Source: Patescibacteria group bacterium
Lineage (GTDB): Bacteria; Patescibacteriota; Patescibacteriia; UBA1558; GWA2-36-10
Length of the DNA: 64,000 bases
NCBI GenBank assembly: GCA_041650755.1
Contig: JBAZKN010000003.1
Coordinates: 18,060-82,059, forward strand
Direction of reading: 5' to 3'
Shown: positions 18,984 through 32,408 of the stretch, in pieces
Numbering within the stretch: the stretch's first letter is position 1
Layout: each line of letters opens with the position of its first letter
Program-made: the position numbers and the translations under genes
The notes under the pieces: generated by a model
Seen by the model: the letters and a program-made list of their open reading frames with translations, nothing else
Databases searched by the model: none
What the model was told of the DNA's origin: nothing

Positions 18984-20027
18984 GTGGTTCTTTTGAAAGT
19001 CTGTCAACAATTACAACCCATAGGAGGAGTCGAAATGAACAGAACCGTGTCGATTCAGCGACGATCTGTCAAAGCGGCTCCTTCAGTAAATGGAGCCGAA
19101 AAGAAACGCAGTTGGTTGAATGCCGTAAAACTGCACACGAGGCGCATTGCCATTGAGTTGTTGAATCTCCTGATTAATCATGACTTGCTGTTCTGGTTGG
19201 TCGGGTTGGTCAACAAAAAGGTTAATCTGATTGAGTCCGTATTCCTGGTTTATCCGGCGAATGAGAAATATGCGCTGGCGTATGTATACCCGTGTCGCCT
19301 ACCAAAGGTAAAGTGGAATCCCATCCCGGGCGGGCTGTTGTGGCAAAACGGAAAATTAACCGTCATGTTCATGATTTCCGCAACCAATGGCCAATTCACT
19401 GATCCACAGAATACGGAAAATCTCCGTCGGATGTCCGATCGAATGGAAAGGCTGCGCCAACTGTTTGGTGCCAGGAGAAAGACGTTTGCCGGAATAGTAC
19501 CCGGAGTCCTGTACGCAGGGAAAATCATCCGGGAAGCTCCGGAAGCGGATTTGACCGCCCAGGCGGTTGCCCAGGCAATTGATTCAGTGAAAGTTGAAGA
19601 ATCGCTTGGCGACGACACGCCGGTCATCATCCTTGGTGGCAGAGGTTTTATCGGCCGTCGAGTAATCGGGTTACTCAAAGATTCTAATGTCTTCAGTATT
19701 GACTCGTCAGACGGTCAGGGCAGTAAAGATTGGCCAAACCACCTTCGCGGGCAGCGAGTCATCGTTGTCAACATCACTCTCAACAATGCCCTTAAGGATT
19801 ACCTTGACGTAATCTGGCCGGGCACGGTGGTGATCAATGAGGTTTATCCTGAGCCGAACTCGGCTATTCTGGAGAGACTGAAAAACAATGGCTGCAGCTG
19901 TCATCACGTGGTTGGTGTCCAAGCCAACGCCTTTCCGTCTTTTCCGGCAGCTTATCATGGAGCGATTCCTTGTTGCGCGGCATGGCCTTCGTCAGAAATG
20001 AAGGTCGTCGTGCGAAGAATCGTTTAG
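18984..20027 (+). CDS. NAD(P)-binding Rossmann-fold protein, function unknown
   Basis: ILGGRGFIGRR (GxGxxG); probable start MNRTVS at 19035 with AGGAGG RBS; GC-rich, co-oriented islet with the FadL gene. Confidence 0.4.
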   Translation: MVLLKVCQQLQPIGGVEMNRTVSIQRRSVKAAPSVNGAEKKRSWLNAVKLHTRRIAIELLNLLINHDLLFWLVGLVNKKVNLIESVFLVYPANEKYALAYVYPCRLPKVKWNPIPGGLLWQNGKLTVMFMISATNGQFTDPQNTENLRRMSDRMERLRQLFGARRKTFAGIVPGVLYAGKIIREAPEADLTAQAVAQAIDSVKVEESLGDDTPVIILGGRGFIGRRVIGLLKDSNVFSIDSSDGQGSKDWPNHLRGQRVIVVNITLNNALKDYLDVIWPGTVVINEVYPEPNSAILERLKNNGCSCHHVVGVQANAFPSFPAAYHGAIPCCAAWPSSEMKVVVRRIV

Positions 20028-20104: not shown

Positions 20105-22036
20105 ATGAGCATACTTTTTGATAAAATTAACATTCTATTGCTAGTTACCGCTTTATTAAATCTTTTTTTAGGGTTTATTATTTTTTTTAATGGTCGTAAT
20201 AAAAAGATTAATATTGTTTATACTTTGAATATCGTAACAATTATTAGCTGGGTTTTAGGGATGGTTTTATATCGTTCAGCTCCTTTAGAAACAAGTTTAT
20301 TCTGGTGTACAGTTTTATACATAGCGCCTACTTTGATTGCCAGCAGTTTTTTATATTTTACTTACATTTTTCCAATGAAGATTGATAGTAATGTGACTTT
20401 AAAGAGTGTCATAATTTTTTCTATTAATACGATTATCATAATAATGTTAGCTTGGCCTGGGTTGGTTATTAAAGCAGTGAATATTAATCCTGGATTTGAA
20501 AAAGAAATCATATTTACAAAGTTCTATTGGTTTTACTTTTTGTATATTGCCGGATTTTTTTCTTATGGTTTTCAAAGACTATTTTTGCGGTATTTAAAGA
20601 GTTCAGGAATAGAACGTCTGCAAATAATTTATTTTTTATTGGGATATGCTATAGCGTCCAATTTAGCGTTTGTAACTAATTTGATAATGCCATGGATTGG
20701 TTATTTCTTTTTGAATTGGCTTGGTCAAGTATTTACAGTGACCATGGTTGGATTTACGACATATGCCATTCTCCGTTATCGCTTGATGGATATTCGTATC
20801 GTCGCCAGAAAACTTTTTATTTATATCGGAATAGCCGGCTTTGCTTATGGTATTTTTTATTTTTTAATTTGGTTTTATAATCATGCATTCGGTAGTGTAT
20901 TTTCTTCCGCCGCCTACGTTACTGGTTTGGTTGTAGCCCCGTTTTTTGTTTTAGCATTTTATAGTTTAGATAGGTACTTAAAGATTTTCGCAAATAAGTA
21001 CCTTTTTGTTTCTCTGTATAATTATCAAGACACCATAAGCAAACTAACCGACAAATTAAATTATTATATTGATCTGGATGAGATTATAGGTTTGATTGTT
21101 GATACTATCAAAAAAACAATGCAGTTAGACCGCGCAGGTGTTTTGTTGGTCAATTCGCAAACAGATCCTATTAAATACCAAATTGCCAAAGTAATTGGTT
21201 TTAATCGTCAAAATGGTATTTCGTTGGTTCAAGACAATTTCCTCACGAAATATTTGTCAAAAACACAGAAACCGTTAGTTCGAGATGAGCTTAATTTTTT
21301 AGTTAGAAATTTTAAAACTGTCGAAGAAAAGCAAAATTTTGAAAAATTATATGATCACATGAAGCATATTGAGGCATCTATATGTTTACCCTTGATGAGC
21401 AATCAAAAATTAATTGGCATTGTCGTCTTGGGGTCAAAAATATCAGGTGATGCTTACAGCAAGGAAGATTTGGAATTGCTTAATACGCTTGCCAATCAAG
21501 CCGGTATCGCCGTTGATAATGCCCGGCTTTATAAAGAAGTCCAGGACTTCAGCCAGACTCTAAAACAAAAAGTTAATGAGCAGACCAAAGAAATCAAAAC
21601 TCAAAGCAAAGACATTGAAGAGAAAAATAAATATCTTCAAGAGTTGCTGAATATGAAGACTGATTTTTTGCGGGTAGTCAACCATCAATTAAATACGCCG
21701 TTGGCGGTAATGAAAGGTTATTTTTCCATGATGGAAGAAGGATCATACCCGAAAGAAAAAGCGATGAAATCAGTCAAAGGCGGGTTGGAGAGGATCAGCT
21801 CAACGGTGTCAGACTTCTGGGATGCCTATGAGCTTGAAGGCGAAAGAATGAATATGGAGCCGCAAAAAACCGATATCACAGAAATCGTCAACCGTTTGAT
21901 TCCGGAAAAACAAAAGTTGCAGTTGGCCCAGGAAAGAAATTTGGAAGTATCCGTTAAAAAGCCTAATTTCAAAATACCCCTTGTTTGGTGCGACTACAAA
22001 AAAAACCGCTCATGTTATTTCCAACCTTTTGGATAA
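20105..22036 (+). CDS. sensor histidine kinase, N-terminal part (multi-pass membrane sensor + GAF-like + HisKA); frame broken near 3' end
   Basis: More than 7 hydrophobic helices, then H-box VNHQLNTPLAVMKGY; ORF terminates shortly after an A8 tract and the ATP-binding domain continues in another frame. Confidence 0.75.
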   Translation: MSILFDKINILLLVTALLNLFLGFIIFFNGRNKKINIVYTLNIVTIISWVLGMVLYRSAPLETSLFWCTVLYIAPTLIASSFLYFTYIFPMKIDSNVTLKSVIIFSINTIIIIMLAWPGLVIKAVNINPGFEKEIIFTKFYWFYFLYIAGFFSYGFQRLFLRYLKSSGIERLQIIYFLLGYAIASNLAFVTNLIMPWIGYFFLNWLGQVFTVTMVGFTTYAILRYRLMDIRIVARKLFIYIGIAGFAYGIFYFLIWFYNHAFGSVFSSAAYVTGLVVAPFFVLAFYSLDRYLKIFANKYLFVSLYNYQDTISKLTDKLNYYIDLDEIIGLIVDTIKKTMQLDRAGVLLVNSQTDPIKYQIAKVIGFNRQNGISLVQDNFLTKYLSKTQKPLVRDELNFLVRNFKTVEEKQNFEKLYDHMKHIEASICLPLMSNQKLIGIVVLGSKISGDAYSKEDLELLNTLANQAGIAVDNARLYKEVQDFSQTLKQKVNEQTKEIKTQSKDIEEKNKYLQELLNMKTDFLRVVNHQLNTPLAVMKGYFSMMEEGSYPKEKAMKSVKGGLERISSTVSDFWDAYELEGERMNMEPQKTDITEIVNRLIPEKQKLQLAQERNLEVSVKKPNFKIPLVWCDYKKNRSCYFQPFG

Positions 22037-22406
22037 CGCCGTTTATTATACCCGCAAAGGTGCAGTCACTCTTTCGTATGAAATGGCAGGCAAAGATTAT
22101 TTGAAAATAAATATCAAAGATACCGGTGTGGGCATATCCGAAGAAGGCAAGAAAAAACTGTTTCAAAAATTTTCCCGCGGTCAGAACGCCACCGACCTTC
22201 GGCCGGACGGTTCCGGGCTCGGACTGTTTATCGCCAAAAAAATCGTTGAAGGAAACAACGGGGAAATATCCTGTTTCAGCGAAGGCATAGGCAAAGGCTC
22301 AACTTTCAGTTTTACTATTCCTATTTACAAAAACCAGCAGACAGCCATAGGACAAGAAAAGCCGGTTACCAGAGAAAAAAAGATTGTCATATTCGACCAA
22401 GATTAA
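21981..22406 (+). CDS. histidine kinase HATPase_c domain (out-of-frame continuation of 20105..22036)
   Basis: N-box NLLDNAVYYT, G1 DTGVGI, G2 GSGLGLFIAK. Confidence 0.7.
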   Translation: MFGATTKKTAHVISNLLDNAVYYTRKGAVTLSYEMAGKDYLKINIKDTGVGISEEGKKKLFQKFSRGQNATDLRPDGSGLGLFIAKKIVEGNNGEISCFSEGIGKGSTFSFTIPIYKNQQTAIGQEKPVTREKKIVIFDQD

Positions 22407-22425
22407 TTAATTTAAAAATTGACAT

Positions 22426-22863
22426 ATGAAACCTACCAACATAATGAAGTCAGACAAAGGCCGAATCCTTTTGGTTGAAGACGAACAGGGTTTGGTTGAC
22501 ATTTACCATGATTTTTTGCTGAATAACGGCTATGATTTTTTATCCACCAAAAACATTGAAGAGGCTTTAACGCTGACTGAATTTGAGCAGCCCGATTTGG
22601 TCTTGCTTGATATCATTATTCCCAAGCCGGAGAATACCATTGCCGAACAGGGCTGGGAATATTTGGAGGCGGTGAAAAAAAATCCCAGGACCAAGGACAT
22701 TCCGATTGTCATTTTCACCAATCTTGATACGCACCGAGACAGAGTGAGAAGCCAAGAGATGGGCGCGGTGGCTTATATTTTTAAAAGGGATTGTACACCC
22801 AGAGAAGTGATGGAAGCAATCGATGAAATTATTAGAAGAGACAGGGAAAAGAAGAAAAAATGA
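22426..22863 (+). CDS. stand-alone response regulator receiver domain protein
   Basis: LLVEDE..DLVLLDIIIP phospho-acceptor Asp context; 145 aa, no output domain. Confidence 0.8.
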   Translation: MKPTNIMKSDKGRILLVEDEQGLVDIYHDFLLNNGYDFLSTKNIEEALTLTEFEQPDLVLLDIIIPKPENTIAEQGWEYLEAVKKNPRTKDIPIVIFTNLDTHRDRVRSQEMGAVAYIFKRDCTPREVMEAIDEIIRRDREKKKK

Positions 22864-23047
22864 TAATTTGACAATCAAGATCATTTTTTATTAAGATAAA
22901 AACATAATTGAATCAATCGACATGGCGCGCCGGTTTTTGGTGCGTTTTATTTAAAATTGATTGACGTTGCCCATAGCATGCAGTGAATCAATGTGAAGTT
23001 TATTCAAGCGGTATAATTAAGTTTATAGTAATCACTAATCGGTATGT

Positions 23048-24046
23048 ATGGATAAAGTTATAGAATTGATAAAATTAAATTACGGCCTATTGCCCAGGTT
23101 AGTTAAGATAATTGACGGGGGCTATTTAGGTAATAATTATTTTCTCACAAGCGGAAAAGGCAACTTTTTTCTTAAGGGATATTGTTATCAAGACATTAGT
23201 AAAGTAGAGGAAATACAGAAGATTGAGTTTTTTTTGGCTGATGGTGGTATCCCCGTGATATTACCCATAAAAAATAATCAAGGATTATATATTTTTACAG
23301 TCGAAGGAATTCATTATTCCTTGTTCCCTTATATTGAAGGGCGCATTGTCCATCGCGACGATCTCACTCAAAAGGTATTTGAATCGGCTGGAAAAATGTT
23401 GGCGCGTATTCATTTACTGAGTAAAAATGGTATTCCTGATTTTGTAACTGAAATAATAAGTCCATATAATAAAAGTATATTTTCAGAAGAATTACAACTT
23501 ATCGAAAAGAAGTTAGAAGATAAGACTCAATTGGATAGCTTTGATCAATTAGCAAGAGAGGCAATTTATTTTAAGAAAAATGCTGTTGAAAGGAATAAAA
23601 TTAAGTATCAAGATCTGAATTTACCTGATAGCCACCTTATCCACGGAGATTACCACGAAGCAAATTTATTCTTTGACGGAAACGAGAATGTAAGTCATGT
23701 CTTTGATTTGGAAAAAGCCAAACGTGCGCCGCGGGTTTATGATATTATTCGTGCGATGGATTCCATGTGTTTTTTTACTCATTTTGAAAACCATAATTTT
23801 GAAAATGCTAAAAGTTTTATTCAGGCGTATGGCTCAATATATCCGCTTGATCAAGTTGAATTTGAAACAGGCATAAAGTACTATTATCTTAAAAAAATAC
23901 ACTCGCTTTTGATTGAGAAAGAACATTATCTTAAACATAATAACCGACTAAATGATTTTTTAAAAAGCGATTTAGTTTCATTATCTTATTATTCATCAAA
24001 TTTAGAAAATTATACCAAACGTCTGATGGAATTTTTGAGAACCTAA
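23048..24046 (+). CDS. phosphotransferase-family kinase (APH/CotS/homoserine-kinase-II-like)
   Basis: Brenner motif HGDYHEANLFFD; downstream DLEKA. Confidence 0.6.
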   Translation: MDKVIELIKLNYGLLPRLVKIIDGGYLGNNYFLTSGKGNFFLKGYCYQDISKVEEIQKIEFFLADGGIPVILPIKNNQGLYIFTVEGIHYSLFPYIEGRIVHRDDLTQKVFESAGKMLARIHLLSKNGIPDFVTEIISPYNKSIFSEELQLIEKKLEDKTQLDSFDQLAREAIYFKKNAVERNKIKYQDLNLPDSHLIHGDYHEANLFFDGNENVSHVFDLEKAKRAPRVYDIIRAMDSMCFFTHFENHNFENAKSFIQAYGSIYPLDQVEFETGIKYYYLKKIHSLLIEKEHYLKHNNRLNDFLKSDLVSLSYYSSNLENYTKRLMEFLRT

Positions 24047-24058
24047 ATATATTATTAA

Positions 24059-25381
24059 ATGTATAGTATGATTTTAAATGAAGACAAAATCATAATCGAA
24101 ATTGATACCATTATTATAGGAGGTGGTATTTCAGCCATCTTTGTTGGTTTGGAATTTATTAACAAGGGTTTTAATGATTTCGTGATTTTAGAGAAAGAAG
24201 ATAGACCGGGCGGCTTATGTCGCTCTTTTCAGTTTGGAGAATTATATTACGATTTGGGCGCTCATGCTTTGCATAAACAAGCTATATTGTCGTCTGACAA
24301 ACTAAGGGAAACTATTAATCCAAATAAACTATATTGTCAGAAGAGAAAAGCTAAAGTATTTATCTTTGATAAATTGATTCCGCACCCTTTTCAATTGCAT
24401 ATTTTTTACGCCCCAATGAATATCAAGCTCAAATGTTTTTATGGTTATTTAGTCAAGAAGAATATAATGCCAGGTAACCTTAAAGAGTGGTTATTATCTA
24501 AATTTGGCAAACAGGTTTGTGAATATTTTCTATTTCCCTATAATGAAAAAGCGTGGCGAACCGATTTAAGTAATATATCTTTGAATTGGATCAACCGAGT
24601 ATCGGCCGGTAATTCAAAATTTATAAAAGGATTATTTTTTAAAGGTGATAAAAATTATAGTTCAAACGAATTTGTTTGTTATCCGTCAAACGGTGGCTTT
24701 GAAAATTTATTTTCAGACGGCATAAAAAAATTATCCAGTTTTATTAAGATTAATGAAGAGGTGATTGGAGTTGATTTGGAAAATAAATTAGTACAGGTTA
24801 AGAATGGGGTCGTATATCATTACGATAAATTAATTTCAACGGTGCCAATAGATATTTTGGTAACAAGACTAATCGAGACCAAGGATAATGAAATTATCAA
24901 ATTGGTAAGTGGGCTGGAAAAAGTTTCCACATGTATCGTCACTTTTTTGACGACAAAGCAATCGACTGATTTACAAAGAGTTTATGTTCCTGAGAAAAAG
25001 TATCTGAGTCAAAGAATTACCATTAATTCCAATTCGAGCGGATTTTTTAAGGAAAAGAGCGAGTCATTATTCTCTTTAGAAATTTCTTACAAAAAAAGAA
25101 ATGATTTACCTGCCGAAGATATTATTATCGACGACTGTAAAAAATTGCTCAAAGATGTCGGTTTGGTAAAATCTAATAATGACATTAAGAATTTTAAAAT
25201 AGAGTTTTTCGAGTATATGTATCCCACACAGACCGTTCGACTGGACAATATAATTTTGCAGACAAAATCATATTTGCAGAAATACGATTGTTATACAATT
25301 GGTCGATTTGGATCATGGAATTATGCCAATATTGATGGTATACTGGATGAAGGAATTGAATTAATTGATAAATATTTTTAA
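24059..25381 (+). CDS. FAD/NAD(P)-binding oxidoreductase (amine oxidase/protoporphyrinogen oxidase-like)
   Basis: Dinucleotide-binding IIIGGGISAIFVGLEF..ILEKEDRPGG at N-terminus; 12 nt after upstream stop. Confidence 0.55.
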   Translation: MYSMILNEDKIIIEIDTIIIGGGISAIFVGLEFINKGFNDFVILEKEDRPGGLCRSFQFGELYYDLGAHALHKQAILSSDKLRETINPNKLYCQKRKAKVFIFDKLIPHPFQLHIFYAPMNIKLKCFYGYLVKKNIMPGNLKEWLLSKFGKQVCEYFLFPYNEKAWRTDLSNISLNWINRVSAGNSKFIKGLFFKGDKNYSSNEFVCYPSNGGFENLFSDGIKKLSSFIKINEEVIGVDLENKLVQVKNGVVYHYDKLISTVPIDILVTRLIETKDNEIIKLVSGLEKVSTCIVTFLTTKQSTDLQRVYVPEKKYLSQRITINSNSSGFFKEKSESLFSLEISYKKRNDLPAEDIIIDDCKKLLKDVGLVKSNNDIKNFKIEFFEYMYPTQTVRLDNIILQTKSYLQKYDCYTIGRFGSWNYANIDGILDEGIELIDKYF

Positions 25382-26567
25382 AATTATGACAATAAATACT
25401 GATGCAAAAAAAATTGAGGAGCTTCTGACACGCGGAGTCGAAGAGGTAATTGAAAAAGATATCTTAAAAAATAAACTGAGGACCGGAAGGCAATTGAGAG
25501 TGAAATTAGGTATTGACCCCACAAGTCCAAACATTCATATCGGCAGATCAATCCCTCTGCTTAAATTGCGAGATTTTCAGGAGTTGGGGCATAAAGTAGT
25601 TTTTATAATTGGTGATTTTACCGGAGTGATTGGCGATACATCCGACAAAGACAGTGAACGGCCGATGCTAAGTGAGAGACAGGTTAATGAAAATATGAAA
25701 AGTTACATTGAGCAGGCCAAGAAAATCATTGATATAGAAAAGTGCGAAGTTCACTATAATAGTGAATGGTTAAAAAAATTGGATTATCATGAAATTGGCA
25801 GGCAAGCGGACGTATTTTCCTTAAATGAATTTATTTCAAGAGAAAATATTAGAAAGAGGCTGGATTCTGGTAAAACCATATCGTTGAGAGAGTTACTGTA
25901 CCCATTAATGCAGGGTTATGATTCCGTAGCAATAAAAGCGGATGTAGAAATTGGCGGGACAGACCAAAGATTTAATTTATTGGCTGGCAGAGAATTGCAA
26001 AGACACTATAAACAAGAACCCCAGGATATTATTACTAATCCTCTAATTGAAGGACTAGATGGTAGGAAAATGAGTTCTAGCTGGGGTAATACTATCAACT
26101 TATTTGATTCAGCTAATGATATATATGGTAAAGTCATGTCTTTGCAAGACGAACTAATTGTAAAATATTTTGTTTTAACAACCAGAGTGGATTTGGCTGA
26201 AATTAATAAGTTGGATAATGAAATGCGATCAGGTAAAAATCCCAGAGATTTGAAAATGAGGTTGGCTTTTGAGATCGTTAAATTTTATCATTCAGCAGAC
26301 CAAGCCAAAGAAGCTGAAAAATATTTTATTAATACTTTCAGCAAAAAAGAAATTCCGGATAATATTCCTTCGTTAAAGCCAAGCCAATATGATATCGTGA
26401 CTGTTCTCTTGGAATCTAAAATTTCACCGACAAAGTCCGAAGCCAGACGGGTTATTGAACAAGGTGGAGTTAAGGTTAATAGTACGGTTGTTGATGATTT
26501 AAAAAAGATAGTAGAAGTAGGGGACGTTATTCAGAAAGGTAAAAGATTTTTTGTAAAAATTGCTTAA
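25365..26567 (+). CDS. tyrS: tyrosine--tRNA ligase
   Basis: Class I signatures HIGR (HIGH variant) and KMSSS (KMSKS variant); C-terminal S4-like domain; overlaps the oxidoreductase gene by 17 nt (alt start M8 at 25386). Confidence 0.85.
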   Translation: MINIFKIMTINTDAKKIEELLTRGVEEVIEKDILKNKLRTGRQLRVKLGIDPTSPNIHIGRSIPLLKLRDFQELGHKVVFIIGDFTGVIGDTSDKDSERPMLSERQVNENMKSYIEQAKKIIDIEKCEVHYNSEWLKKLDYHEIGRQADVFSLNEFISRENIRKRLDSGKTISLRELLYPLMQGYDSVAIKADVEIGGTDQRFNLLAGRELQRHYKQEPQDIITNPLIEGLDGRKMSSSWGNTINLFDSANDIYGKVMSLQDELIVKYFVLTTRVDLAEINKLDNEMRSGKNPRDLKMRLAFEIVKFYHSADQAKEAEKYFINTFSKKEIPDNIPSLKPSQYDIVTVLLESKISPTKSEARRVIEQGGVKVNSTVVDDLKKIVEVGDVIQKGKRFFVKIA

Positions 26568-26588
26568 TTAATCAACTAATTAAATAAC

Positions 26589-28265
26589 ATGAGACTAAAA
26601 TTTAAATTGGATAAATATTTTTTGAATCCACAAAATGATAACTGCGATGAGCTTTTTAAACAGATATCCATTTTAGACAAAGCGATTCAGAAATTAAAAA
26701 AAGTAAATCAATCTAGGATTCCCGGAATAGTATCTAAAAAGTACGAAAGTTATTTAAAAAAATCTTTCATACCGCAAAATGAACAAAATCCAGCGAAAGT
26801 AATGGCCGAATTATCGGAGCTCTTTAAGGGCGCAGTTAGATGGCATCATCCTGGCACGATGATCAACGTAACACCGCCACCGTTAATTTCGACAGTAGCG
26901 GCTTCGACAATGACGATGCTATATAATCCTAATCTGGCAATTGATGTTTCTTGTGGCGGTCTAAGCGTCTCTGAATTAGAGGTGACTAAACATATGGCGA
27001 CATTAGTAAACTGGGATTGGCACAAAGCTTTTGGCGTCTTTACCTTTGGTGGTAAGGGAACCAATTTATATGCCGTTAAGGTAGCTTTAAATCGGTACCG
27101 TTCTGATTTTAAAGAGAAAGGACTGCAGGGCAAAGTCGCAATAACCTCAACCGAGCAGGGCCATCCTTGTCATATTGAAGTATGCGATTGGCTTGGCTTA
27201 GGCAGATCCAATTGCCTTAGATTGCCTCTAGATTCCACGGGAAGAATTGACTCAAAACAGGCTGAAAAAATAACCTCATCTTTTATTGAAGAAGGAGGCG
27301 CTATTCCATGCATGATAGTCAACGGTGGAACCACGCTGCATAATACCGTTGATCCGATTAAGAAAATGGTGCAATTAAGAGATCGGTTGGTTAAGAAGTA
27401 TAAATTAAAATATAAGCCTCATGTTCACGTTGATTCAGTTTTGGGTTGGGCTTGGCTTTTCTTTAAAGATTATGATTTTAAAAGTAATCCAGAGAAATTA
27501 AATAAAATAGCAATCAAGAAATTAGAGAACATGTATAAGCGGTTGTCAGAAATTGAATTTGCCGATTCTTTTGGAGTGGATTTTCATAAAACCGGTTTTT
27601 GTCCTTATCTATCAAGTGTGTTTATCGCAAAAGATAAAAAATGGATTGATAATCTTGGTGTGTCCCCACAACCATCATTGGCTGAATTGCAATTTGGTAA
27701 TTATTCGCCCTTTACTTATACCTTAGAATCATCCAGACCTTTAACTGGGTCGGTATCGGCTTTAGTCGCTTTAAGATCGCTGGGCATGCGAGGTTTCAGA
27801 AAAATTATTTCCGATTTGGTGAGTAGTACGGAAATAATCAAAAGACGATTTAATGAGATGAAGGGGTTTTGCGTGGCAAATCCCGAAGATGAAAATTTCG
27901 TTACCCTGTTTATGGTGTTGCCGCCAGATATTGATAGTAGCTATAAAGAAGCTTTAAATGCTGGTCGCGCTGTTGCCATTAGAGTTGCCGAGTATAATTA
28001 TAAATTTTATTTATTTTTAATGGAGAAACAAATTATTGGCGGCAGTTCTTTGGCCATTGACTACATTAGCGGCTACGAAAAATCGAAGTCAGACATCAAA
28101 CTGGGAGTGTTGAAAATGTATCCAGTTTCACCATATTTTGATACCAAATATGTCGACCAGTTATCAAAGGAATTAGTTAAGTATAAAAAGGAATTTGAAA
28201 AAGTAGCCGATAAATTTAAACCCAAGGCCTGTCCTCACGTGCCAAAAAATTTAGTCCTAAGATAA
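26589..28265 (+). CDS. group II PLP-dependent decarboxylase (tyrosine/aromatic amino-acid decarboxylase-like)
   Basis: HHPGTMINVTPPPL and NPNLAIDVSCGGLSVSELEV segments characteristic of TDC/MfnA-type decarboxylases; 558 aa. Confidence 0.65.
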   Translation: MRLKFKLDKYFLNPQNDNCDELFKQISILDKAIQKLKKVNQSRIPGIVSKKYESYLKKSFIPQNEQNPAKVMAELSELFKGAVRWHHPGTMINVTPPPLISTVAASTMTMLYNPNLAIDVSCGGLSVSELEVTKHMATLVNWDWHKAFGVFTFGGKGTNLYAVKVALNRYRSDFKEKGLQGKVAITSTEQGHPCHIEVCDWLGLGRSNCLRLPLDSTGRIDSKQAEKITSSFIEEGGAIPCMIVNGGTTLHNTVDPIKKMVQLRDRLVKKYKLKYKPHVHVDSVLGWAWLFFKDYDFKSNPEKLNKIAIKKLENMYKRLSEIEFADSFGVDFHKTGFCPYLSSVFIAKDKKWIDNLGVSPQPSLAELQFGNYSPFTYTLESSRPLTGSVSALVALRSLGMRGFRKIISDLVSSTEIIKRRFNEMKGFCVANPEDENFVTLFMVLPPDIDSSYKEALNAGRAVAIRVAEYNYKFYLFLMEKQIIGGSSLAIDYISGYEKSKSDIKLGVLKMYPVSPYFDTKYVDQLSKELVKYKKEFEKVADKFKPKACPHVPKNLVLR

Positions 28266-28294
28266 GTTAAAATATTATCATCTGTCCTAAAAAA

Positions 28295-28340
28295 ATTGAG
28301 CCCCTTTTTCGTAGTTTGCAACTGACAGAAAAGGGGCCCG
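28295..28340. terminator. bidirectional terminator hairpin between convergent decarboxylase and tyrS-2 genes
   Basis: GAGCCCCTTTTTC..(loop)..GAAAAGGGGCCC stem with an A-run upstream and U-rich stem arm. Confidence 0.5.
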
Positions 28341-28345
28341 AGGTT

Positions 28346-29680
28346 TCATTGCTCGACAACATTGATCGCGAAGAATTTGAGCTTACCAACTCGCAGCTTA
28401 CACGTTTCCGTGATTGATGCAGAGGAGGCGAGAATTGATTCTCCGGAGTCCGATATCAACCGAACCGCGTTCTGATCGAAGAGTCGGCGCAACTCCCCTT
28501 TGCTTTTGAAATGACCAGAGTTAACGAGTAAGTCAAGTAAGTTTTGGCCGCTACTGGCCGTTAGGGGAATGCAGTCCGCGTCCGTGACGATCCGTTTGGA
28601 GAACTTCCGCTCAAAGTTCTCTCGTTCCTGGAGACCCGCTGCGAGGTCTTTGGCTTCGAGCGCAACCAGGAACGTCGCCAATTGCTTTTTCGCTTCCATC
28701 GGATCAGAGTCGATTAGCTGTTTGAGCGCCTCGACCTCACGTTCGTGGACATCGGCGAAACTGCAGAAGTACTGGAAGATGAGCTGGTCGGGGATTGACA
28801 TGATTTTGCCGAACTTGTCTTCCAAACTGGCGTTGACGGGTACGGTGTTGCCGAAACTCTTGCTCATCTTACGGCCTGCTCCGTCCGTGCCTTCGAGCAA
28901 CGGGACCATCAGTGCAACTTCTTCCTCTATTCCTTTTTCCTGCATGATCTTGCGACATTGCTGGAAGTTGAGAAGCTGATCGATGCCTCCGATCTCGACG
29001 TCGGTTGACAGTTGGACTGAATCAATTCCCATCAACACGCCGTAGCACACTTCCGCCAGAGAAACACCCTGTTCGTTTCTCATCCTCTTGCGGAAGTCTT
29101 CCCTCTGCATCGCCTCGGTCAGGTTGATCCGTTGAAACACTGCGAATACATCTCGCAGCGTCATGGGGTTTAACCACTCCGAGTTGCGGTGAAGATGGAG
29201 CCGTGACAGGTCAATGTACCTGCCGATCTGGTCCTGGTAGGTTCGCATGTTTTCGACGATTTGTTCATTGGTGAGCGGTACCCGACCCGTATCTCGTTCG
29301 GTCGGATCACCAATGATCGCGGTGAAGTCACCAATGATAAAATCAATGTGGTGACCCGCCTTAGCGAATTGGTTGAGGAGCATAATCGGCACGATATGAC
29401 CCAGGTGGATGTTTGAAGCGGTTGGGTCAATGCCAAACTTCACTCGCAGCTTTCTGCCTGCTTCCAGGAGACGCTGCAGCTTGCCCGCGGTAATGATTTC
29501 CTGACACTTGGGGTACAGGAAACCGACTAGCTCGCTGGCATTCATTCCTTCCCACGACTCGCTGATGCGTGGGAAAAACTGCTGGTCGAACCTAGTTTTG
29601 GTATTCATGGTTCCTGTTCCCTTCTGTGACTGTTGTTGAATGTTCAAAGCTACCCAATGTAGCATTGTATTGTATATCAA
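28346..29680 (-). CDS. tyrS: tyrosine--tRNA ligase, second GC-rich paralog
   Basis: HLGH, KMSKS, S4-like C-terminus; clearly homologous to 25365..26567 (for example LRVKFGIDPTASNIHLGH versus LRVKLGIDPTSPNIHIGR) but very different codon/GC usage; probable start MNTKTRF at 29608. Confidence 0.8.
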   Translation of the reverse strand: MIYNTMLHWVALNIQQQSQKGTGTMNTKTRFDQQFFPRISESWEGMNASELVGFLYPKCQEIITAGKLQRLLEAGRKLRVKFGIDPTASNIHLGHIVPIMLLNQFAKAGHHIDFIIGDFTAIIGDPTERDTGRVPLTNEQIVENMRTYQDQIGRYIDLSRLHLHRNSEWLNPMTLRDVFAVFQRINLTEAMQREDFRKRMRNEQGVSLAEVCYGVLMGIDSVQLSTDVEIGGIDQLLNFQQCRKIMQEKGIEEEVALMVPLLEGTDGAGRKMSKSFGNTVPVNASLEDKFGKIMSIPDQLIFQYFCSFADVHEREVEALKQLIDSDPMEAKKQLATFLVALEAKDLAAGLQERENFERKFSKRIVTDADCIPLTASSGQNLLDLLVNSGHFKSKGELRRLFDQNAVRLISDSGESILASSASITETCKLRVGKLKFFAINVVEQ

Positions 29681-29884
29681 ATTATGATATTTGTCAAGGA
29701 GTTTTTTGCTTATTATAGGTATAAATTTTTTTAATTACCATTGACAAAAATGGCTTTATTGTTCTAAAGTTAATCAGATCAGTCGATTCGTAAATGGCTG
29801 GTTACAATGTTTTCATGCTCCTTACAACTGGAGTAAGGTGAAATTATAGAGCTATATGAGTCAAACACCAAGGAGAAAACAGCG

Positions 29885-30766
29885 ATGAACACTCTGCAAA
29901 TAAAAGCAGTGGCATATAAGAGCAAGTATTATTACCAGGGACTCGATTACCTTGCAAGGAATCACCCGGATAATTCTCATTTGCTCTCGTGCTACGAAGG
30001 AACCAGTTTCAGGGATTTGGCTAGGCACGTGACGTTCGACAAAACCGGCAAAGTTCTGAAGTTGAACGGATATCTGGCAAGACCGCGCCGATTCGTTTTG
30101 ATTGCGGCTGATGAAAGAATCGCTGGTGTCATGGTTACAATTTCTTTGCCCGAGTTTTACAAAGAGATTGACTATGAAGACTACGCCGTGATCGACACCC
30201 AGACCATTTCTGGATATGAAAGATTTTTGGATCATCTGTCTTTCGGCGGACGGGCGGAAATCGTGACCTTTGATGCAAATCAGGTCAAGTCGGTGAAATC
30301 AAGATTTCCCATCAGGGGAATTCACCACTGGACTGTTTTTGCTTCTCAAGGAAAAACTTCGACTCGTTCTGTCAACGCTGTCTTGATGGACAGAGGTGAT
30401 CTGAAAATCGCTAGAGAGTTGGCACAACAAGTGCCGGAAGAATCGTCGCCGTTTCGTTTGTTGATGTTTCAACTCAGAGGGTTGCCGTACAGAAACTACG
30501 CCTTTAGCTACAACGGCAGACCAGCGGTTTTTGTGGGTATTTGCCCTTACAGTCGGGGAGTCTACCAGGTCAATTACTTCATAAGACTTTCCGGCAGTAC
30601 CGCTTTCTCGCTCGCTGCTTTAGAGTCCATAAGTAGATTAGTCAAAACCGAAAGGTGCAGATTAATCTGGCGATTGAGAAAGAAAGAAGTATTGAAGAAC
30701 AAAGTTCTGATTGCGAGATCGAGCTTTGGGAAGTTGACCGATGAACAGCATTTGCATTTGAAATAG
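29885..30766 (+). CDS. hypothetical protein (GC-rich islet)
   Basis: 293 aa; AGGAG RBS 8 nt upstream; no motif recognised. Confidence 0.35.
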   Translation: MNTLQIKAVAYKSKYYYQGLDYLARNHPDNSHLLSCYEGTSFRDLARHVTFDKTGKVLKLNGYLARPRRFVLIAADERIAGVMVTISLPEFYKEIDYEDYAVIDTQTISGYERFLDHLSFGGRAEIVTFDANQVKSVKSRFPIRGIHHWTVFASQGKTSTRSVNAVLMDRGDLKIARELAQQVPEESSPFRLLMFQLRGLPYRNYAFSYNGRPAVFVGICPYSRGVYQVNYFIRLSGSTAFSLAALESISRLVKTERCRLIWRLRKKEVLKNKVLIARSSFGKLTDEQHLHLK

Positions 30767-30812
30767 CCTTTGTTCCACACTGACTAGACGGTGTAGTTGG
30801 AATAAGGTAAAT

Positions 30813-32405
30813 TTGAATGCATCACAAGCCCAACACCAAGGAGGAATAGCGATGAAAGGTCGTATAACGTTGATTAGTCCGAACACGCCAGGTTCGTACC
30901 GTTCCGCGAAAATCAATGATGAAAACCTCGCCCTTGGTTATTTGGCAGCCGTGCTTGATATGCATGGTTATGAGGTAGAAATTGTTGATGCGCGGATGAG
31001 TCAGCTCTCCCCAGAACTAGCAGCAGAGCAGATTCAGAGATTTCAGCCCTTCTTTCTCGGTATTTCTACGATTTCCGAGGAGTCAGTGCCGTGGATTGAG
31101 GCATTGTGGGCGTTGCTCGGTTCGCCGAGCTATCTGAAACACGTCTGCATGGGTGGCTATTATCCATCCCTGCAACCGGAGACAGTGTTGCACCGATTGC
31201 CTTTCGTTGACTCGGTCGCCAGAGGAGAAGGCGAAATTACTGTCGTGGAGTTGACTGAAAAAGTTAGGCTCGGCGAATGTTGGGATAATGTCATGGGGAT
31301 TGCCAGAAGATTAGCTGACGGATCCGTCGCAATGAATCCGCGTCAGGCCGTCATCGCCAATCTTGATTCCTTGCCTTTCCCGAAACGTTATGCCAACAGC
31401 AACGGCACGGAGATCGTCATCGAGGGGGCCCGAGGATGTTTTGGCCGGTGTTCTTTTTGTGCCGTAGGTCCCCACTTCGAAGCGGGTTGCAAACTCGCCT
31501 GGAGGGGTCGTTCACCAGAGCACATCATTGCGGAGATAATCGAGCTTCGTCAATTGTTCCCCGGTAATTTCCGATACCGCTTCATTGACCCTGACTTTTT
31601 CGGATCAGCATCTCGAGTTCACTCGGATAGGATTGAAAGAATTGCTACCCTCGTCCGCGAGAAAGTCCCTGGGATTGAGCTCTACGTTGAAGCGCGAGTA
31701 ACCGACATTTGCCGAAAAGACATCTTGGAGTCCTTGAAACAAGCTGGGCTTAAAGAGGTCTATCTCGGCATTGAATCGGGTAGCAATAAGATCCTTGCCC
31801 TTATGGGTAAGTGCGCTTCGGCGGCTGATGCAATCAGGGCGACGAGCCTTCTCGAGGCAGTGGGGATTAACTATCAGTATGGTCATATGATGGTTACTCC
31901 TTGGACCGAATACCAAGACGTGCTCGACAGTCTAGCTCTTCTGCGAGTAATTGGCAGAGTGCAATTTGATAAGTTGTTTAACGAGCTCTATTTGATTCCC
32001 GGGACCAAACTCGTGGATCAAGTAGGGAGCGAACATCAACTTGTCAGAGAGGAGGGCACAGGGTACTACTTCTACGAGGCCAATCAGTTGGTCAGAAACA
32101 TCCGCGCCATTGGCGTTGCCTTTGAAACAGTATACAAATCGTTCTCTGAAAGCCTTTGGTATTTATACAAAGACGTTCAGCGGCACGAGCAGTGTAATGT
32201 TAAAGGGGCGACAGCCATTCAACGCGAGTTAAGCGGTTGGTTCATTGCCGCCTTCGAGTTTTGTTTAGAGAGAAGCAAGGATAAACCACTTAGCACTTCG
32301 CAAGTGCACGGCATCGTGGAAGAAGCGATCGCTCGCTTCCAAGCAGTCTTTGAGACAATCCGGGAAAAGTTGGATCAGGACATCACCTTCCCCAGAATGA
32401 TTTAG
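30813..32405 (+). CDS. B12-binding-domain radical SAM protein (class B rSAM)
   Basis: CFGRCSFC (CxxxCxxC) at about aa 210, preceded by an N-terminal cobalamin-binding-like Rossmann domain; probable start MKGRITL at 30852 with AAGGAGG RBS. Confidence 0.75.
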   Translation: MNASQAQHQGGIAMKGRITLISPNTPGSYRSAKINDENLALGYLAAVLDMHGYEVEIVDARMSQLSPELAAEQIQRFQPFFLGISTISEESVPWIEALWALLGSPSYLKHVCMGGYYPSLQPETVLHRLPFVDSVARGEGEITVVELTEKVRLGECWDNVMGIARRLADGSVAMNPRQAVIANLDSLPFPKRYANSNGTEIVIEGARGCFGRCSFCAVGPHFEAGCKLAWRGRSPEHIIAEIIELRQLFPGNFRYRFIDPDFFGSASRVHSDRIERIATLVREKVPGIELYVEARVTDICRKDILESLKQAGLKEVYLGIESGSNKILALMGKCASAADAIRATSLLEAVGINYQYGHMMVTPWTEYQDVLDSLALLRVIGRVQFDKLFNELYLIPGTKLVDQVGSEHQLVREEGTGYYFYEANQLVRNIRAIGVAFETVYKSFSESLWYLYKDVQRHEQCNVKGATAIQRELSGWFIAAFEFCLERSKDKPLSTSQVHGIVEEAIARFQAVFETIREKLDQDITFPRMI

Positions 32406-32408
32406 TCA

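What the first reader, a model, noticed from the sequence alone, without database searches (positions are those of the whole stretch)
23048..28265. Housekeeping tyrS embedded in a tightly packed operon with a kinase, a flavin oxidase and a tyrosine-type PLP decarboxylase
Four co-directional genes are packed with 12-nt, minus-17-nt (overlap) and 21-nt spacers. They encode an APH-like phosphotransferase, an FAD amine-oxidase-like enzyme, TyrRS (with HIGR/KMSSS signature variants) and a group II decarboxylase of the tyrosine decarboxylase type. Coupling an aminoacyl-tRNA synthetase to enzymes that would decarboxylate, oxidise and phosphorylate an aromatic amino acid or amine is unusual. It points to a tyrosine/tyramine-derived metabolite pathway or to regulation of Tyr charging by pathway flux.
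Basis: partly seen in the sequence, partly recalled or inferred. Interest (0 to 1): 0.6.

Follow-up and report, generated by a model that had tools for sequence, protein, structure and literature searches.

The report
Decarboxylase module carrying its own tyrS
The four genes are real, but they are one half of a larger gene module that moves between genomes and pairs an uncharacterised amino-acid decarboxylase with its own extra tyrosyl-tRNA synthetase; lactic acid bacteria show the same pairing, but here the enzyme family and the partner genes are different and the product is unknown.

Summary
The four ORFs exist at the stated coordinates and are tightly packed. The interpretation needs four corrections.

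1. The embedded tyrS is not the housekeeping gene. It is an auxiliary paralog of a natural HxGR/KMS(S/T)S subtype. A second tyrS of the type common in Patescibacteria lies convergent just downstream (28346-29608).
2. The "oxidase" matches eukaryote-type UDP-galactopyranose mutases and keeps their key residues.
3. The kinase is found only in this window.
4. The decarboxylase belongs to a large uncharacterised ~555-aa group II family. It is not the TDC or MfnA family.

The conserved unit is: mutase-like flavoenzyme, TyrRS1, decarboxylase, TyrRS2 (opposite strand), tandem-GNAT protein, B12-radical-SAM enzyme. A 7TM-GAF sensor kinase with response regulator often accompanies it. I found this unit in about 10 metagenome contigs, and it carries the same GC mosaic in them.

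Across phyla, this decarboxylase family sits within 8 kb of a TyrRS in 24 of 80 genomes, in four different gene contexts. In gut Bacilli it sits beside the native T-box-regulated tyrS.

Best reading: a tyrosine-drawing decarboxylase module that brings its own synthetase, as in the lactic-acid-bacterial tyrS-tdcA cluster, followed by clade-specific tailoring. A Tyr-tRNA-dependent GNAT pathway is the main rival. The product is unknown.

The parts
18984..20027 (+). Unknown 347-aa protein with a GxGxxG Rossmann-like motif (ILGGRGFIG). Travels with the sensor kinase.
   Evidence: No Pfam, NCBIfam or PDB sequence hit. Orthologs lie downstream of the B12-rSAM gene in L092 (70% identity) and L082 (33%). 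GC 0.50. A 13-bp terminator-like hairpin follows at 20029-20058.
20105..22406 (+). 7TM-GAF-HisKA-HATPase sensor histidine kinase. Frameshifted in this window.
   Evidence: Pfam HisKA_7TM, GAF and HisKA. The gene is intact (766 aa) in source contig L001. The window has an A8 run at 21998-22005 where L001 has A7. Orthologs flank the module in L092 (68%) and L082.
22426..22863 (+). Response regulator, receiver domain only.
   Evidence: PF00072, 60 bits. 80% ortholog after the kinase in L092.
23048..24046 (+). APH-fold phosphotransferase. Add-on specific to this window, not part of the conserved module.
   Evidence: PF01636, 82 bits. Far below every NCBIfam cutoff; best is homoserine kinase at 69 bits against 271. 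Best PDB hit is spectinomycin phosphotransferase at 8e-8. No tblastn hit in any related locus.
24059..25381 (+).
   Evidence: PDB: A. fumigatus and T. cruzi UGM at E 1e-28 to 1e-31; the nearest amine oxidase is at 1e-3. In the alignment to 3uka, the positions I recall as H63, R182, Y317, R327, Y419, R447, Y453 and N457 are conserved (residue numbers from memory). Present in L002-4, L082, L086, L088, L092-96 and L098 at 50-62% identity.
25386..26567 (+). TyrRS1: module-borne auxiliary tyrosyl-tRNA synthetase of the HxGR/KMS(S/T)S subtype, full length with S4 domain. An alternative TTG start lies at 25365.
   Evidence: TIGR00234, 362 bits. Type-2 TyrRS: 6bqy at 3e-92. Canonical Tyr-binding Y..Q..D motif. 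HIGR, KMSSS and GDTSDK are conserved in all orthologs. These changes co-vary in the closest roughly 20 of 150 representative clusters. GC 0.35.
26589..28265 (+). Group II PLP-dependent decarboxylase of an uncharacterised ~555-aa family.
28300..28337 (.). Inverted repeat GCCCCTTTT-N20-AAAAGGGGC between the convergent decarboxylase and TyrRS2 genes. Probably a bidirectional terminator.
   Evidence: Read from the sequence. Coordinates and fold energy of -19.8 kcal/mol.
28346..29608 (-). TyrRS2: second tyrosyl-tRNA synthetase of the Patescibacteria-type 'Met-variant' clade. The ORF extends to a TTG at 29680, but orthologs start at Met25.
   Evidence: TIGR00234, 261 bits. 100% identical to an NCBI protein named 'MAG: tyrosine--tRNA ligase [Patescibacteria group bacterium]'. 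Has HLGH and KMSKS. Reads YGVLMGIDS, with Met where Gln173 of the B. stearothermophilus enzyme lies; 107 of its 120 closest clusters share this. GC 0.52.
29609..29884 (.). Divergent intergenic region with promoter-like sites facing both ways.
   Evidence: TTGACA-17-TACAAT on the - strand at 29697-29669 (11 of 12 matches). TTGACA-18-TAAAGT on the + strand at 29741-29770. These are consensus matches only.
29885..30766 (+). Tandem-GNAT-fold protein with no sequence-level relatives of known function. Always adjacent to the B12-rSAM gene and fused to it in L085.
30813..32405 (+). Cobalamin-dependent (class B) radical SAM enzyme.
   Evidence: PF02310 plus PF04055. C209xxxCxxC motif. Best NCBIfam hit is the MCR glutamine C-methyltransferase at 95 bits against 360. 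PDB hits 9ccb and OxsB. 63-73% orthologs in every module.

Best explanation
**What is shown**

The four genes are the left arm of a conserved, horizontally spread module. Its order is:
- UGM-like flavoenzyme
- auxiliary TyrRS1
- a ~555-aa group II PLP decarboxylase
- TyrRS2 of the Patescibacteria type, on the opposite strand
- a tandem-GNAT protein
- a B12-radical-SAM enzyme

An unknown Rossmann-like protein, a 7TM-GAF sensor kinase and a response regulator sit on one side or the other. Across bacteria, only two of these parts stay constant: the decarboxylase and a dedicated TyrRS lineage.

**What is inferred**

1. The decarboxylase draws on the tyrosine pool and makes tyramine or a close analogue. 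The homologous logic is the tyrS-tdcA cluster of lactic acid bacteria.
2. The module brings its own synthetase so that tRNA-Tyr charging is kept up, or sensed, while tyrosine is drained. TyrRS1 looks catalytically competent. Its HIGH-to-HIGR and KMSKS-to-KMSSS changes co-vary like a charge swap, and the tyrosine pocket and the tRNA-binding S4 domain are intact.
3. The amine is then tailored by clade-specific transferases. In this clade these are the tandem GNAT (acylation) and the B12-rSAM enzyme (C-methylation), possibly on or with a furanose sugar supplied by the mutase-like enzyme.
4. The two-component system controls expression.

The APH kinase is a local addition.
For: **Module conservation**
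- The full order is seen in L003, L004, L082, L086, L087, L092-94, L096, L099 and L100.
- L002, L088 and L098 lack TyrRS2.
- L083 carries the minimal trio decarboxylase-GNAT-rSAM next to an IS110 transposase.
- L085 carries a GNAT-rSAM fusion.

**Spread between genomes**
- Flanking genes differ between contigs, and the kinase block is circularly permuted.
- The same GC mosaic is seen in the orthologous full-order modules compared: left arm 0.25-0.38, right arm 0.40-0.51. Housekeeping genes in this window are at 0.42-0.46.

**Decarboxylase-TyrRS linkage**
- 24 of 80 genomes, P below 1e-12.
- The linkage occurs in four decarboxylase clades whose accessory genes are unrelated to each other.
- The TyrRS copies linked to the decarboxylase in gut Alphaproteobacteria, Clostridia and Bacilli form one clade.
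- In tandem tyrS pairs, a T-box leader precedes only the second, native copy.

**Both synthetases look functional**
- TyrRS1 competence.
- TyrRS2 belongs to a clade of more than 100 clusters that recurs in its own conserved Patescibacterial neighbourhood.

**Decarboxylase catalytic residues** are invariant.

Against: - The decarboxylase's substrate is inferred only from its neighbours. Homology and fold place it equally far from the DABA, glutamate, tryptophan, tyrosine and MfnA enzymes.
- The module has no amino-acid/amine antiporter and no T-box or other riboswitch. The proton-motive and acid-resistance rationale of the lactic-acid-bacterial cluster therefore does not carry over.
- The supply model does not explain why a tandem GNAT without a CoA-binding motif sits beside TyrRS2, transcribed divergently from it.
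- Some module variants lack any TyrRS (L083).
- Basal decarboxylase clades (Planctomycetota, Latescibacterota, Bathyarchaeia) show no TyrRS link.
- In clade E the neighbour is ValRS, not TyrRS, in 6 of 17 loci.
- The total number of tyrS genes in this genome is unknown.
Confidence: 0.45

Rival explanations
1. A tRNA-dependent biosynthetic pathway, with logic like valanimycin or Fem enzymes. The extra TyrRS copies make Tyr-tRNA as an activated donor. The tandem-GNAT protein transfers the tyrosyl group to an amine or amino-sugar acceptor, either the decarboxylase product or a sugar from the mutase-like enzyme. The B12-rSAM enzyme then methylates the conjugate.
For: - It has no [QR]xxGx[GA] acyl-CoA motif.
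- The GNAT gene is transcribed divergently from TyrRS2 and is fused to the rSAM enzyme in L085.
- The valanimycin pathway combines a decarboxylase (VlmD), a flavoenzyme (VlmH/R), a synthetase paralog (VlmL), a GNAT-fold transferase (VlmA) and a kinase (VlmJ) (PMC4052509, PMC12945691).
- Synthetase paralogs commonly feed Fem-type ligases (PMC2922099).
- A glycosyltransferase lies next to the module in L085.
Against: - There is no sequence similarity to FemAB or any solved GNAT.
- The GNAT occurs in only one of the four TyrRS-linked decarboxylase clades. The other clades show no related protein.
- L083 has decarboxylase-GNAT-rSAM without any TyrRS.
Confidence: 0.25
2. Self-resistance. The module makes a tyrosine- or tyrosyl-adenylate-mimicking inhibitor of TyrRS. 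TyrRS1, with its altered HIGH and KMSKS motifs, is the insensitive immunity copy.
For: - Extra synthetase copies in biosynthetic clusters act as resistance genes (AcmD, SbzA; PMC12945691).
[quoted passage not shown] 28).
- TyrRS1 carries exactly such motif changes, and they are conserved in all orthologs.
- Other decarboxylase clades carry nucleotidyl-, phosphoryl- and carbamoyl-transferases plus HIT and HD hydrolases, which would suit aminoacyl-nucleotide chemistry.
Against: - HxGR/KMS(S/T)S synthetases also occur outside such modules. One lies beside gyrA fused to a B3_4 domain, so the motif is a lineage trait and not a module-specific adaptation.
- TyrRS copies linked to the decarboxylase in the gut clades have fully canonical motifs.
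- No exporter is conserved in the module.
Confidence: 0.12
3. One reading: the decarboxylase, amine oxidase and kinase act in sequence on tyrosine or tyramine, with a housekeeping tyrS embedded among them.
For: - Tight packing of the four genes.
- A Pfam Amino_oxidase hit.
Against: - The kinase is absent from all related modules.
- The flavoenzyme keeps UGM substrate-binding residues.
- A second tyrS of the native type is adjacent.
Confidence: 0.05
4. Chance juxtaposition of unrelated genes in a variable genomic island.
For: - The module lies next to a stretch carrying a recombinase, restriction-modification genes and defence-like genes.
- GC content is a mosaic.
Against: - The same gene order recurs in about 10 contigs with different flanks.
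- The decarboxylase-TyrRS linkage across phyla has P below 1e-12.
Confidence: 0.03

Closest known systems
Tyramine (TDC) cluster of Enterococcus and Lactobacillus: tyrS-tdcA-tyrP-nhaC. The histamine cluster with hisS is analogous.
   Same: - A tyrosyl-tRNA synthetase gene sits directly beside, and co-directional with, a group II PLP decarboxylase.
- The synthetase is often an extra copy.
- Both enzymes are thought to share one amino-acid pool (PMC3315439, PMC4932888).
- In gut Bacilli the module studied here lies next to a T-box-regulated tyrS.
   Different: - There is no TyrP antiporter and no NhaC.
- No T-box precedes TyrRS1.
- The module has extra conserved partners: a UGM-like enzyme, a tandem GNAT, a B12-rSAM enzyme and a two-component system.
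- Hosts are Patescibacteria and many other phyla, not lactic acid bacteria.
Valanimycin pathway (VlmD decarboxylase, VlmH/R flavoenzyme, VlmL SerRS paralog, VlmA GNAT-fold aminoacyl-tRNA-dependent transferase, VlmJ kinase), together with other aminoacyl-tRNA-dependent GNAT systems (DhpH/K, PacB, Orf11/Sbb17, FemXAB).
   Same: The same set of enzyme classes sits in one cluster: amino-acid decarboxylase, flavoenzyme, dedicated synthetase, double-GNAT protein, and in this window a kinase (PMC4052509, PMC12945691).
   Different: - No component was shown here to be homologous to its valanimycin counterpart.
- Here the synthetase is a class I TyrRS; VlmL is a SerRS.
- Here the flavoenzyme is UGM-like; VlmH/R convert the amine to a hydroxylamine.
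- The kinase is not conserved.
- tRNA dependence of the GNAT is untested.
- B12-rSAM is not among the valanimycin enzymes described in PMC4052509.
Synthetase paralogs in natural-product clusters that act as supply or self-resistance genes (AcmD/AcmF in ascamycin, SbzA in SB-203208).
   Same: - An additional full-length synthetase copy is encoded inside a biosynthetic-looking cluster.
- Its class I signature motifs are altered.
   Different: - No nucleoside or sulfamate chemistry is evident.
- The altered-motif TyrRS subtype also occurs outside such clusters.

Membership tests
Lactic-acid-bacterial tyramine (TDC) cluster | Decarboxylase belongs to the enterococcal tyrosine decarboxylase equivalog (TIGR03811). 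| tested here: not met
   [not shown]
Lactic-acid-bacterial tyramine (TDC) cluster | tyrS gene adjacent to the decarboxylase. | tested here: met
   TyrRS1 ends 21 nt upstream of the decarboxylase. The arrangement is conserved in about 12 contigs.
Lactic-acid-bacterial tyramine (TDC) cluster | Tyrosine/tyramine antiporter (TyrP), with or without NhaC, in the cluster. | tested here: not met
   No transporter family appears among the ORFs at 18.9-35 kb or among the called genes inside the module in related contigs.
Lactic-acid-bacterial tyramine (TDC) cluster | Tyr-specific T-box leader upstream of the cluster's tyrS. | tested here: not met
   No Rfam match at E up to 1 in 18500-33500. T-boxes occur only before the native second tyrS in gut Bacilli loci.
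Group II PLP-dependent amino-acid decarboxylases (PF00282) | Fold-type I group II architecture, with a PLP-binding Lys, an Asp that binds the pyridine N, and a His that stacks on the ring. | tested here: met
   [not shown]
Group II PLP-dependent amino-acid decarboxylases (PF00282) | Aromatic (Tyr/DOPA/Trp) substrate class. | tested here: inconclusive
   The enzyme is about equally distant (12-20% identity) from DABA, GAD, TrpDC, TDC, MfnA and HDC. Only the link to TyrRS genes points to tyrosine.
Tyrosyl-tRNA synthetase (TIGR00234) | Score above the equivalog cutoff, full length, with a C-terminal tRNA-binding domain. | tested here: met
   TyrRS1 scores 362 bits and has an S4 domain. TyrRS2 scores 261 bits, and the model is covered to residue 441 of 444.
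Tyrosyl-tRNA synthetase (TIGR00234) | Canonical HIGH and KMSKS motifs, and the Tyr-binding Y/Q/D triad (B. stearothermophilus numbering 169/173/176, from memory). | tested here: inconclusive
   TyrRS1 has HIGR and KMSSS, with the triad intact. TyrRS2 has HLGH and KMSKS, but Gln is replaced by Met. Both variants are traits of whole clades. Catalytic activity cannot be tested with these tools.
UDP-galactopyranose mutase (eukaryote-type) | FAD Rossmann fold plus the conserved flavin-loop His and the Arg/Tyr/Asn residues that bind UDP-sugar. | tested here: met
   E 8e-32 to 3uka/3ute and 1e-28 to 4dsg over nearly the full length. The aligned positions GAH, NRVSAGN, YVPE, SQRITINSNSS, MYPTQT and GRFGSWNYANID keep the residues I recall as H63, R182, Y317, R327, Y419, R447, Y453 and N457. 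Mutase activity cannot be tested here.
Flavin amine oxidase (PF01593 in the strict sense) | Closest characterised relatives are amine or amino-acid oxidases. | tested here: not met
   The best amine-oxidase chains score E 1.4e-3 and 8.6e-3, over the dinucleotide-binding N-terminus only.
Aminoacyl-tRNA-dependent Fem/GNAT transferases | Double-GNAT fold. | tested here: met
   [not shown]
Aminoacyl-tRNA-dependent Fem/GNAT transferases | Sequence membership (FemAB Pfam family) or use of aminoacyl-tRNA as donor. | tested here: not met
   No Pfam, NCBIfam or PDB-profile hit. The CoA motif is absent, which is compatible with tRNA use but does not prove it. Donor use cannot be tested with these tools.
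Class B (cobalamin-dependent) radical SAM enzymes | N-terminal B12-binding domain plus a CxxxCxxC radical SAM core. | tested here: met
   PF02310 at 49 bits and PF04055 at 52 bits. C209FGRCSFC. No equivalog cutoff is reached.

The most novel reading that the evidence does not exclude
The ~555-aa decarboxylase family and its private TyrRS lineages (ValRS in one clade) could define a broad, unrecognised class of modules in which a synthetase is coupled to amino-acid tailoring. In the Patescibacterial version, Tyr-tRNA made by a dedicated synthetase would be used by a new family of Fem-like tandem-GNAT transferases, sometimes fused to a B12-rSAM enzyme. The product would be a methylated tyrosyl/tyramine glycoconjugate or metabolite. 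That would be a tRNA-dependent secondary or cell-surface pathway in organisms thought to have almost no biosynthetic capacity.
Probability: 0.25. Interest if true: 0.8.

Novelty: new variant of a known kind. Interest (0 to 1): 0.6.

Why it matters
- Pairing a decarboxylase with its cognate synthetase has been discussed only for tyramine and histamine clusters of lactic acid bacteria, and its purpose there is still unresolved. This analysis shows the same pairing evolving around a different, uncharacterised decarboxylase family with more than 1500 members. It occurs in at least four gene contexts and six phyla, including Patescibacteria, gut Mollicutes-like Bacilli, gut Alphaproteobacteria and Nocardia.
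- That gives a comparative handle on why decarboxylases recruit synthetases.
- It nominates substrates for a large orphan enzyme family found in gut and candidate-phyla organisms, which may produce tyramine-type amines.
- It flags an orphan pair, tandem GNAT plus B12-rSAM, as a candidate new tailoring or tRNA-dependent enzyme system.
- It identifies two natural TyrRS subtypes with altered catalytic or substrate-binding positions (HxGR/KMS(S/T)S, and Gln to Met). These are of interest for synthetase enzymology and engineering.

Tried and rejected
1. **Genetic-code expansion with a dedicated tRNA.** No tRNA gene lies inside or beside the module in any of the 25 loci scanned; the few tRNA genes found (Ser, His, Glu) lie outside it. 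The window's tRNAs are far away.
2. **T-box or other riboswitch control of TyrRS1.** Nothing in Rfam at E up to 1.
3. **Anti-phage defence system.** No meaningful PADLOC hits.
4. **Phage-borne module.** Only one distant decarboxylase relative (30% identity) in IMG/VR.
5. **RiPP with a precursor peptide.** No convincing small ORFs in the intergenic regions.
6. **TyrRS1 as a decayed pseudo-enzyme.** Rejected because HxGR and KMS(S/T)S co-vary across a clade, and the tyrosine pocket and S4 domain are intact.
7. **TyrRS2's Gln-to-Met change as a module-specific change of substrate.** Rejected because 107 of its 120 closest clusters share it, including genes outside the module.
8. **Shared accessory enzymes between decarboxylase clades.** hhalign found no relationship.
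9. **att-like direct repeats bounding the module.** Only AT-rich chance matches.
10. **Published description of this system.** Four literature searches found none.
11. **AFDB fold search.** The library was unavailable.
12. **Locating the 180-kb NCBI contig through P0121.** Not on record.

Full report
**1. Observation**

Spacers are 12, -17 and 21 nt. The 17-nt overlap exists only with the TTG start. The source contig's gene call and all orthologs use the ATG at 25386, which gives a 4-nt gap.

Pfam and NCBIfam give APH, Amino_oxidase/NAD_binding_8, TyrRS (TIGR00234, 362 bits, S4 domain) and Pyridoxal_deC. HIGR and KMSSS are present. No terminator-like site lies between the four genes. A 9-bp GC-rich inverted repeat (28300-28337, -19.8 kcal/mol) follows the decarboxylase.

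The window is identical to ENA metagenome contig k141_2528913 except for one extra A in a homopolymer, which frameshifts the upstream histidine kinase. Proteins identical to two of the window's genes are named by NCBI as 'Patescibacteria group bacterium', on a 180-kb contig.

**2.

Eighty nucleotides past the decarboxylase, on the opposite strand, lies a second full-length TyrRS (28346-29608; TIGR00234, 261 bits). Divergent from it are:
- a 293-aa protein with no family hit,
- a B12-binding radical SAM enzyme.

Upstream of the kinase are a response regulator, a 7TM-GAF histidine kinase and an unknown 347-aa protein.

GC content is a mosaic:

| Genes | GC |
|---|---|
| Sensor kinase, APH kinase, flavoenzyme, TyrRS1, decarboxylase | 0.31-0.37 |
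| Response regulator (between the two kinases) | 0.42 |
| TyrRS2, 293-aa protein, rSAM enzyme, 347-aa protein | 0.45-0.52 |
| Housekeeping genes in the window (NusA, GlmS, TsaD, PilB, H+-PPase) | 0.42-0.46 |

**3. The conserved unit**

I searched with the decarboxylase in one genome per species. I also used exact-protein look-ups and a metagenome scan with the 293-aa protein.

- The order flavoenzyme - TyrRS1 - decarboxylase - TyrRS2 (reverse) - 293-aa protein - B12-rSAM recurs at 50-80% identity in L003, L004, L082, L086, L087, L092-94, L096, L099 and L100.
- Versions without TyrRS2 occur in L002, L088 and L098.
- A minimal decarboxylase-293aa-rSAM trio sits next to an IS110 transposase in L083.
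- A fusion of the 293-aa protein to the rSAM enzyme (870 aa) occurs in L085.
- The 347-aa protein, kinase and response regulator lie upstream in this window but downstream in L092 and L082.
- Flanking genes differ from contig to contig.
- The low-GC/high-GC split of the two arms is reproduced in the orthologous full-order modules I compared. This suggests a composite that formed once and then spread.
- The APH kinase has no counterpart in any related locus.

**4. The individual proteins**

*Flavoenzyme.*
- Its closest solved relatives are eukaryote-type UDP-galactopyranose mutases, at E about 1e-31 over nearly the full length. The best amine oxidase is at 1e-3.
- In the alignment, the flavin-loop His and the Arg/Tyr/Asn residues that bind UDP-sugar are all conserved (residue numbers from my memory of the A. 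fumigatus enzyme).
- It is therefore better described as an NDP-sugar-mutase-like enzyme than as an oxidase.

*Decarboxylase.*
- It has more than 1500 homologs of about 555 aa.
- The PLP Lys (DFHK), Asp and His are invariant.
- No curated equivalog comes close.
- Its substrate cannot be read from homology.

*293-aa protein.*
- AF2 pLDDT is 91.8.
- It has no [QR]xxGx[GA] CoA motif and no sequence-level hit to any solved structure.

*rSAM enzyme.* It has a B12-binding domain and a CxxxCxxC motif.

**5. The two synthetases**

Both are type-2 TyrRS, closest to PDB entries 6bqy and T. thermophilus 1h3e.

*TyrRS1.*
- It keeps the Tyr-binding Y..Q..D triad.
- It has HIGR, KMSSS and GDTSDK, and these are conserved in all orthologs.
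- Among the 150 best 50%-identity representatives, HxGR co-occurs with KMS(S/T)S in the closest roughly 20. The rest are HxGH/KMSKS. The pattern is a charge swap, not decay.
- From memory: human TyrRS is also KMSSS and is active.
- Some relatives carry an N-terminal B3_4 domain, the type of domain that forms the PheRS-beta editing site. One such gene lies beside gyrA. So this is a natural functional subtype.

*TyrRS2.*
- It has HLGH and KMSKS, but Met replaces the Gln that binds the substrate's alpha-ammonium group.
- 107 of its 120 closest clusters share this. They include proteins from Parcubacteria, Shapirobacteria, Fervidobacterium and Thermoactinomycetaceae.
- In two Patescibacterial genomes this type sits in its own conserved neighbourhood: ThiF, a nitroreductase-like protein, a 7TM kinase, TyrRS, a SAM_HAT_N protein, an S51 peptidase and a NUDIX protein.
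- Several of these families also flank the module elsewhere.

I conclude that TyrRS2 is most likely the resident tyrS type, and that TyrRS1 is the module-borne extra copy. The total number of tyrS genes in this genome is not known.

**6. The wider pattern**

In the 80 genomes carrying the decarboxylase, a TyrRS lies within 8 kb in 24. P is below 1e-12 even if the chance rate per locus is set at 5%.

A tree of the decarboxylases splits into context types:

| Clade | Gene context | Hosts |
|---|---|---|
| A | this module | Patescibacteria-like contigs, Marvinbryantia |
| B | decarboxylase, carbamoyltransferase, kinase-like protein, with transketolase-like, HAD and unknown proteins, plus TyrRS | Nocardia, Clostridia, gut Alphaproteobacteria, Bacilli |
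| C | TyrRS, decarboxylase, unknown, nucleotidyltransferase | Saccharibacteria |
| D | unknown, HIT, HIT, decarboxylase, HD, HIT, TyrRS (sometimes two) | gut Mollicutes-like Bacilli, Clostridia, Alphaproteobacteria |
| E | nucleotidyltransferase, decarboxylase, phosphodiesterase-like, with ValRS in 6 of 17 loci | Saccharibacteria, Shapirobacteria, Bacilli, Clostridia, Alphaproteobacteria, Treponema |

- Profile comparison finds no relationship between the accessory families of clades B-E and the window's proteins. Only the decarboxylase and TyrRS are constant.
- The decarboxylase-linked TyrRS of clades B and D form one clade that spans three phyla.
- Where two tyrS genes are in tandem, a T-box leader (94-111 bits) precedes only the second, native copy.
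- The same pattern therefore appears in gut Bacilli and in this Patescibacterial window: a module-borne tyrS parked next to the resident tyrS.

**7. Mechanism**

*Shown:* gene content, conservation, catalytic residues, folds and linkage statistics.

*Inferred:*
- The decarboxylase uses tyrosine or a close analogue.
- The dedicated synthetase protects or senses tRNA-Tyr charging against that drain. This is the idea discussed for the tyrS-tdcA cluster of lactic acid bacteria. [quoted passage not shown]
- The product is then tailored by clade-specific transferases. Here these are the tandem GNAT and the B12-rSAM enzyme, perhaps with a furanose sugar from the mutase-like enzyme. A glycosyltransferase replaces that enzyme in L085.

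*Main rival:* the synthetases supply Tyr-tRNA to the tandem GNAT. Valanimycin biosynthesis works this way, combining a decarboxylase, a flavoenzyme, a SerRS paralog, a GNAT-fold aminoacyl-tRNA transferase and a kinase (PMC4052509, PMC12945691, PMC2922099).
- For it: the fold, the missing CoA motif and the divergent TyrRS2/GNAT promoter region.
- Against it: fold cannot discriminate, and the GNAT is confined to one clade.

*Third reading:* self-resistance to a TyrRS inhibitor. It is weakened because the altered-motif subtype also occurs outside such modules.

**8. Comparison and novelty**

The system works like the lactic-acid-bacterial tyramine cluster, but it fails three of that cluster's four defining features:
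- the decarboxylase family,
- the antiporter,
- the T-box.

It resembles the valanimycin logic only by analogy. Four literature searches found no description of this decarboxylase family, of its TyrRS linkage or of the GNAT/B12-rSAM pair.

I rate it a new variant of a known kind. It is interesting mainly because the synthetase-decarboxylase coupling turns out to be far broader than the lactic-acid-bacterial case, and because several orphan families are involved.

**9. Verdict**

- The core intuition, a tyrosine-linked pathway coupled to a synthetase, is supported by comparative genomics.
- The product remains unknown.

Noticed in passing
It belongs to a large clade in which Met replaces the Gln that binds the tyrosine alpha-ammonium group (YGxLMGxDS).
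   Followed up: yes
window 21998-22005: An A8 homopolymer here is A7 in the otherwise identical source contig L001. It splits the 766-aa 7TM-GAF histidine kinase into two overlapping ORFs (20105-22036 and 21981-22406). This could be an assembly or sequencing variant, or a real phase-variable frameshift.
   Followed up: partly
window 12121-12237 (+): A LOOT RNA (Rfam RF03000, 83 bits against a gathering score of 46) lies directly upstream of an unknown 353-aa ORF (12295-13356).
   Followed up: no
window 2372-15703: A stretch that looks mobile or defence-related: a radical SAM protein, an SDH-type ClpP-like protease, a large serine recombinase (5312-6631, -), a Dcm methylase with an HpaII endonuclease (6783-8790), an AAA_13/SMC-like ATPase (9378-11933), and a ParB-N/DNA methylase fusion (14306-15703, -).
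   Followed up: no
window 17616-18866 (-): A FadL/Toluene_X outer-membrane transporter (177 bits) lies on a contig whose proteins NCBI labels as Patescibacteria. That is unexpected for organisms usually described as lacking an outer membrane. It could point to a binning or taxonomy problem, or to horizontal acquisition.
   Followed up: no
L027, L037, L044, L045, L048, L055 (and L040): In one decarboxylase clade (nucleotidyltransferase, decarboxylase, phosphodiesterase-like) the neighbouring synthetase is ValRS in 6 of 17 loci across Saccharibacteria, Shapirobacteria, Bacilli and Clostridia. One locus has a TrpRS-like gene. The type of synthetase may track the decarboxylase's substrate.
   Followed up: partly
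L011 12047-12234; L022 13254-13444; L047 13319-13509; L049 12664-12853: T-box leaders lie between tandem tyrS genes in gut Bacilli. Only the second copy is T-box regulated. The first copy ends the decarboxylase operon.
   Followed up: yes
L101 and L104 (Patescibacteria), around 8001-9250: TyrRS2-type genes sit in a conserved neighbourhood: an unknown ~500-aa protein, ThiF, a TM1586 nitroreductase-like protein, a HisKA_7TM kinase, TyrRS, an unknown 186-aa protein, then SAM_HAT_N, an S51 peptidase and NUDIX. It looks biosynthetic, possibly RiPP-like.
   Followed up: partly
L017 3813-5747, L020 5167-7104, L103 2237-4381: TyrRS genes fused to an N-terminal B3_4 domain (the type of domain that forms the PheRS-beta editing site), about 645-714 aa in all. 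Several more appear among the closest relatives of TyrRS1.
   Followed up: partly
L082 4487-7384: One version of the module is preceded by a CntK_N (histidine-racemase-like) protein, an M15 (VanX-like) dipeptidase and a class II HisRS. That makes a third synthetase in the neighbourhood.
   Followed up: no
L001, L003, L004, L082, L086, L087, L092-96: The same GC split between the two arms of the module (flavoenzyme/TyrRS1/decarboxylase at 0.25-0.38; TyrRS2/GNAT/rSAM at 0.40-0.51) persists across orthologs that differ by 20-50% in protein sequence.
   Followed up: yes
window 33375-35165 and 49729-55672: Two PilB-type ATPases, a PilC (T2SSF) protein and several pilin-like proteins with N-terminal methylation motifs, one of them carrying LVIVD repeats. 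These are type IV pilus genes, which are common in candidate-phyla bacteria.
   Followed up: no
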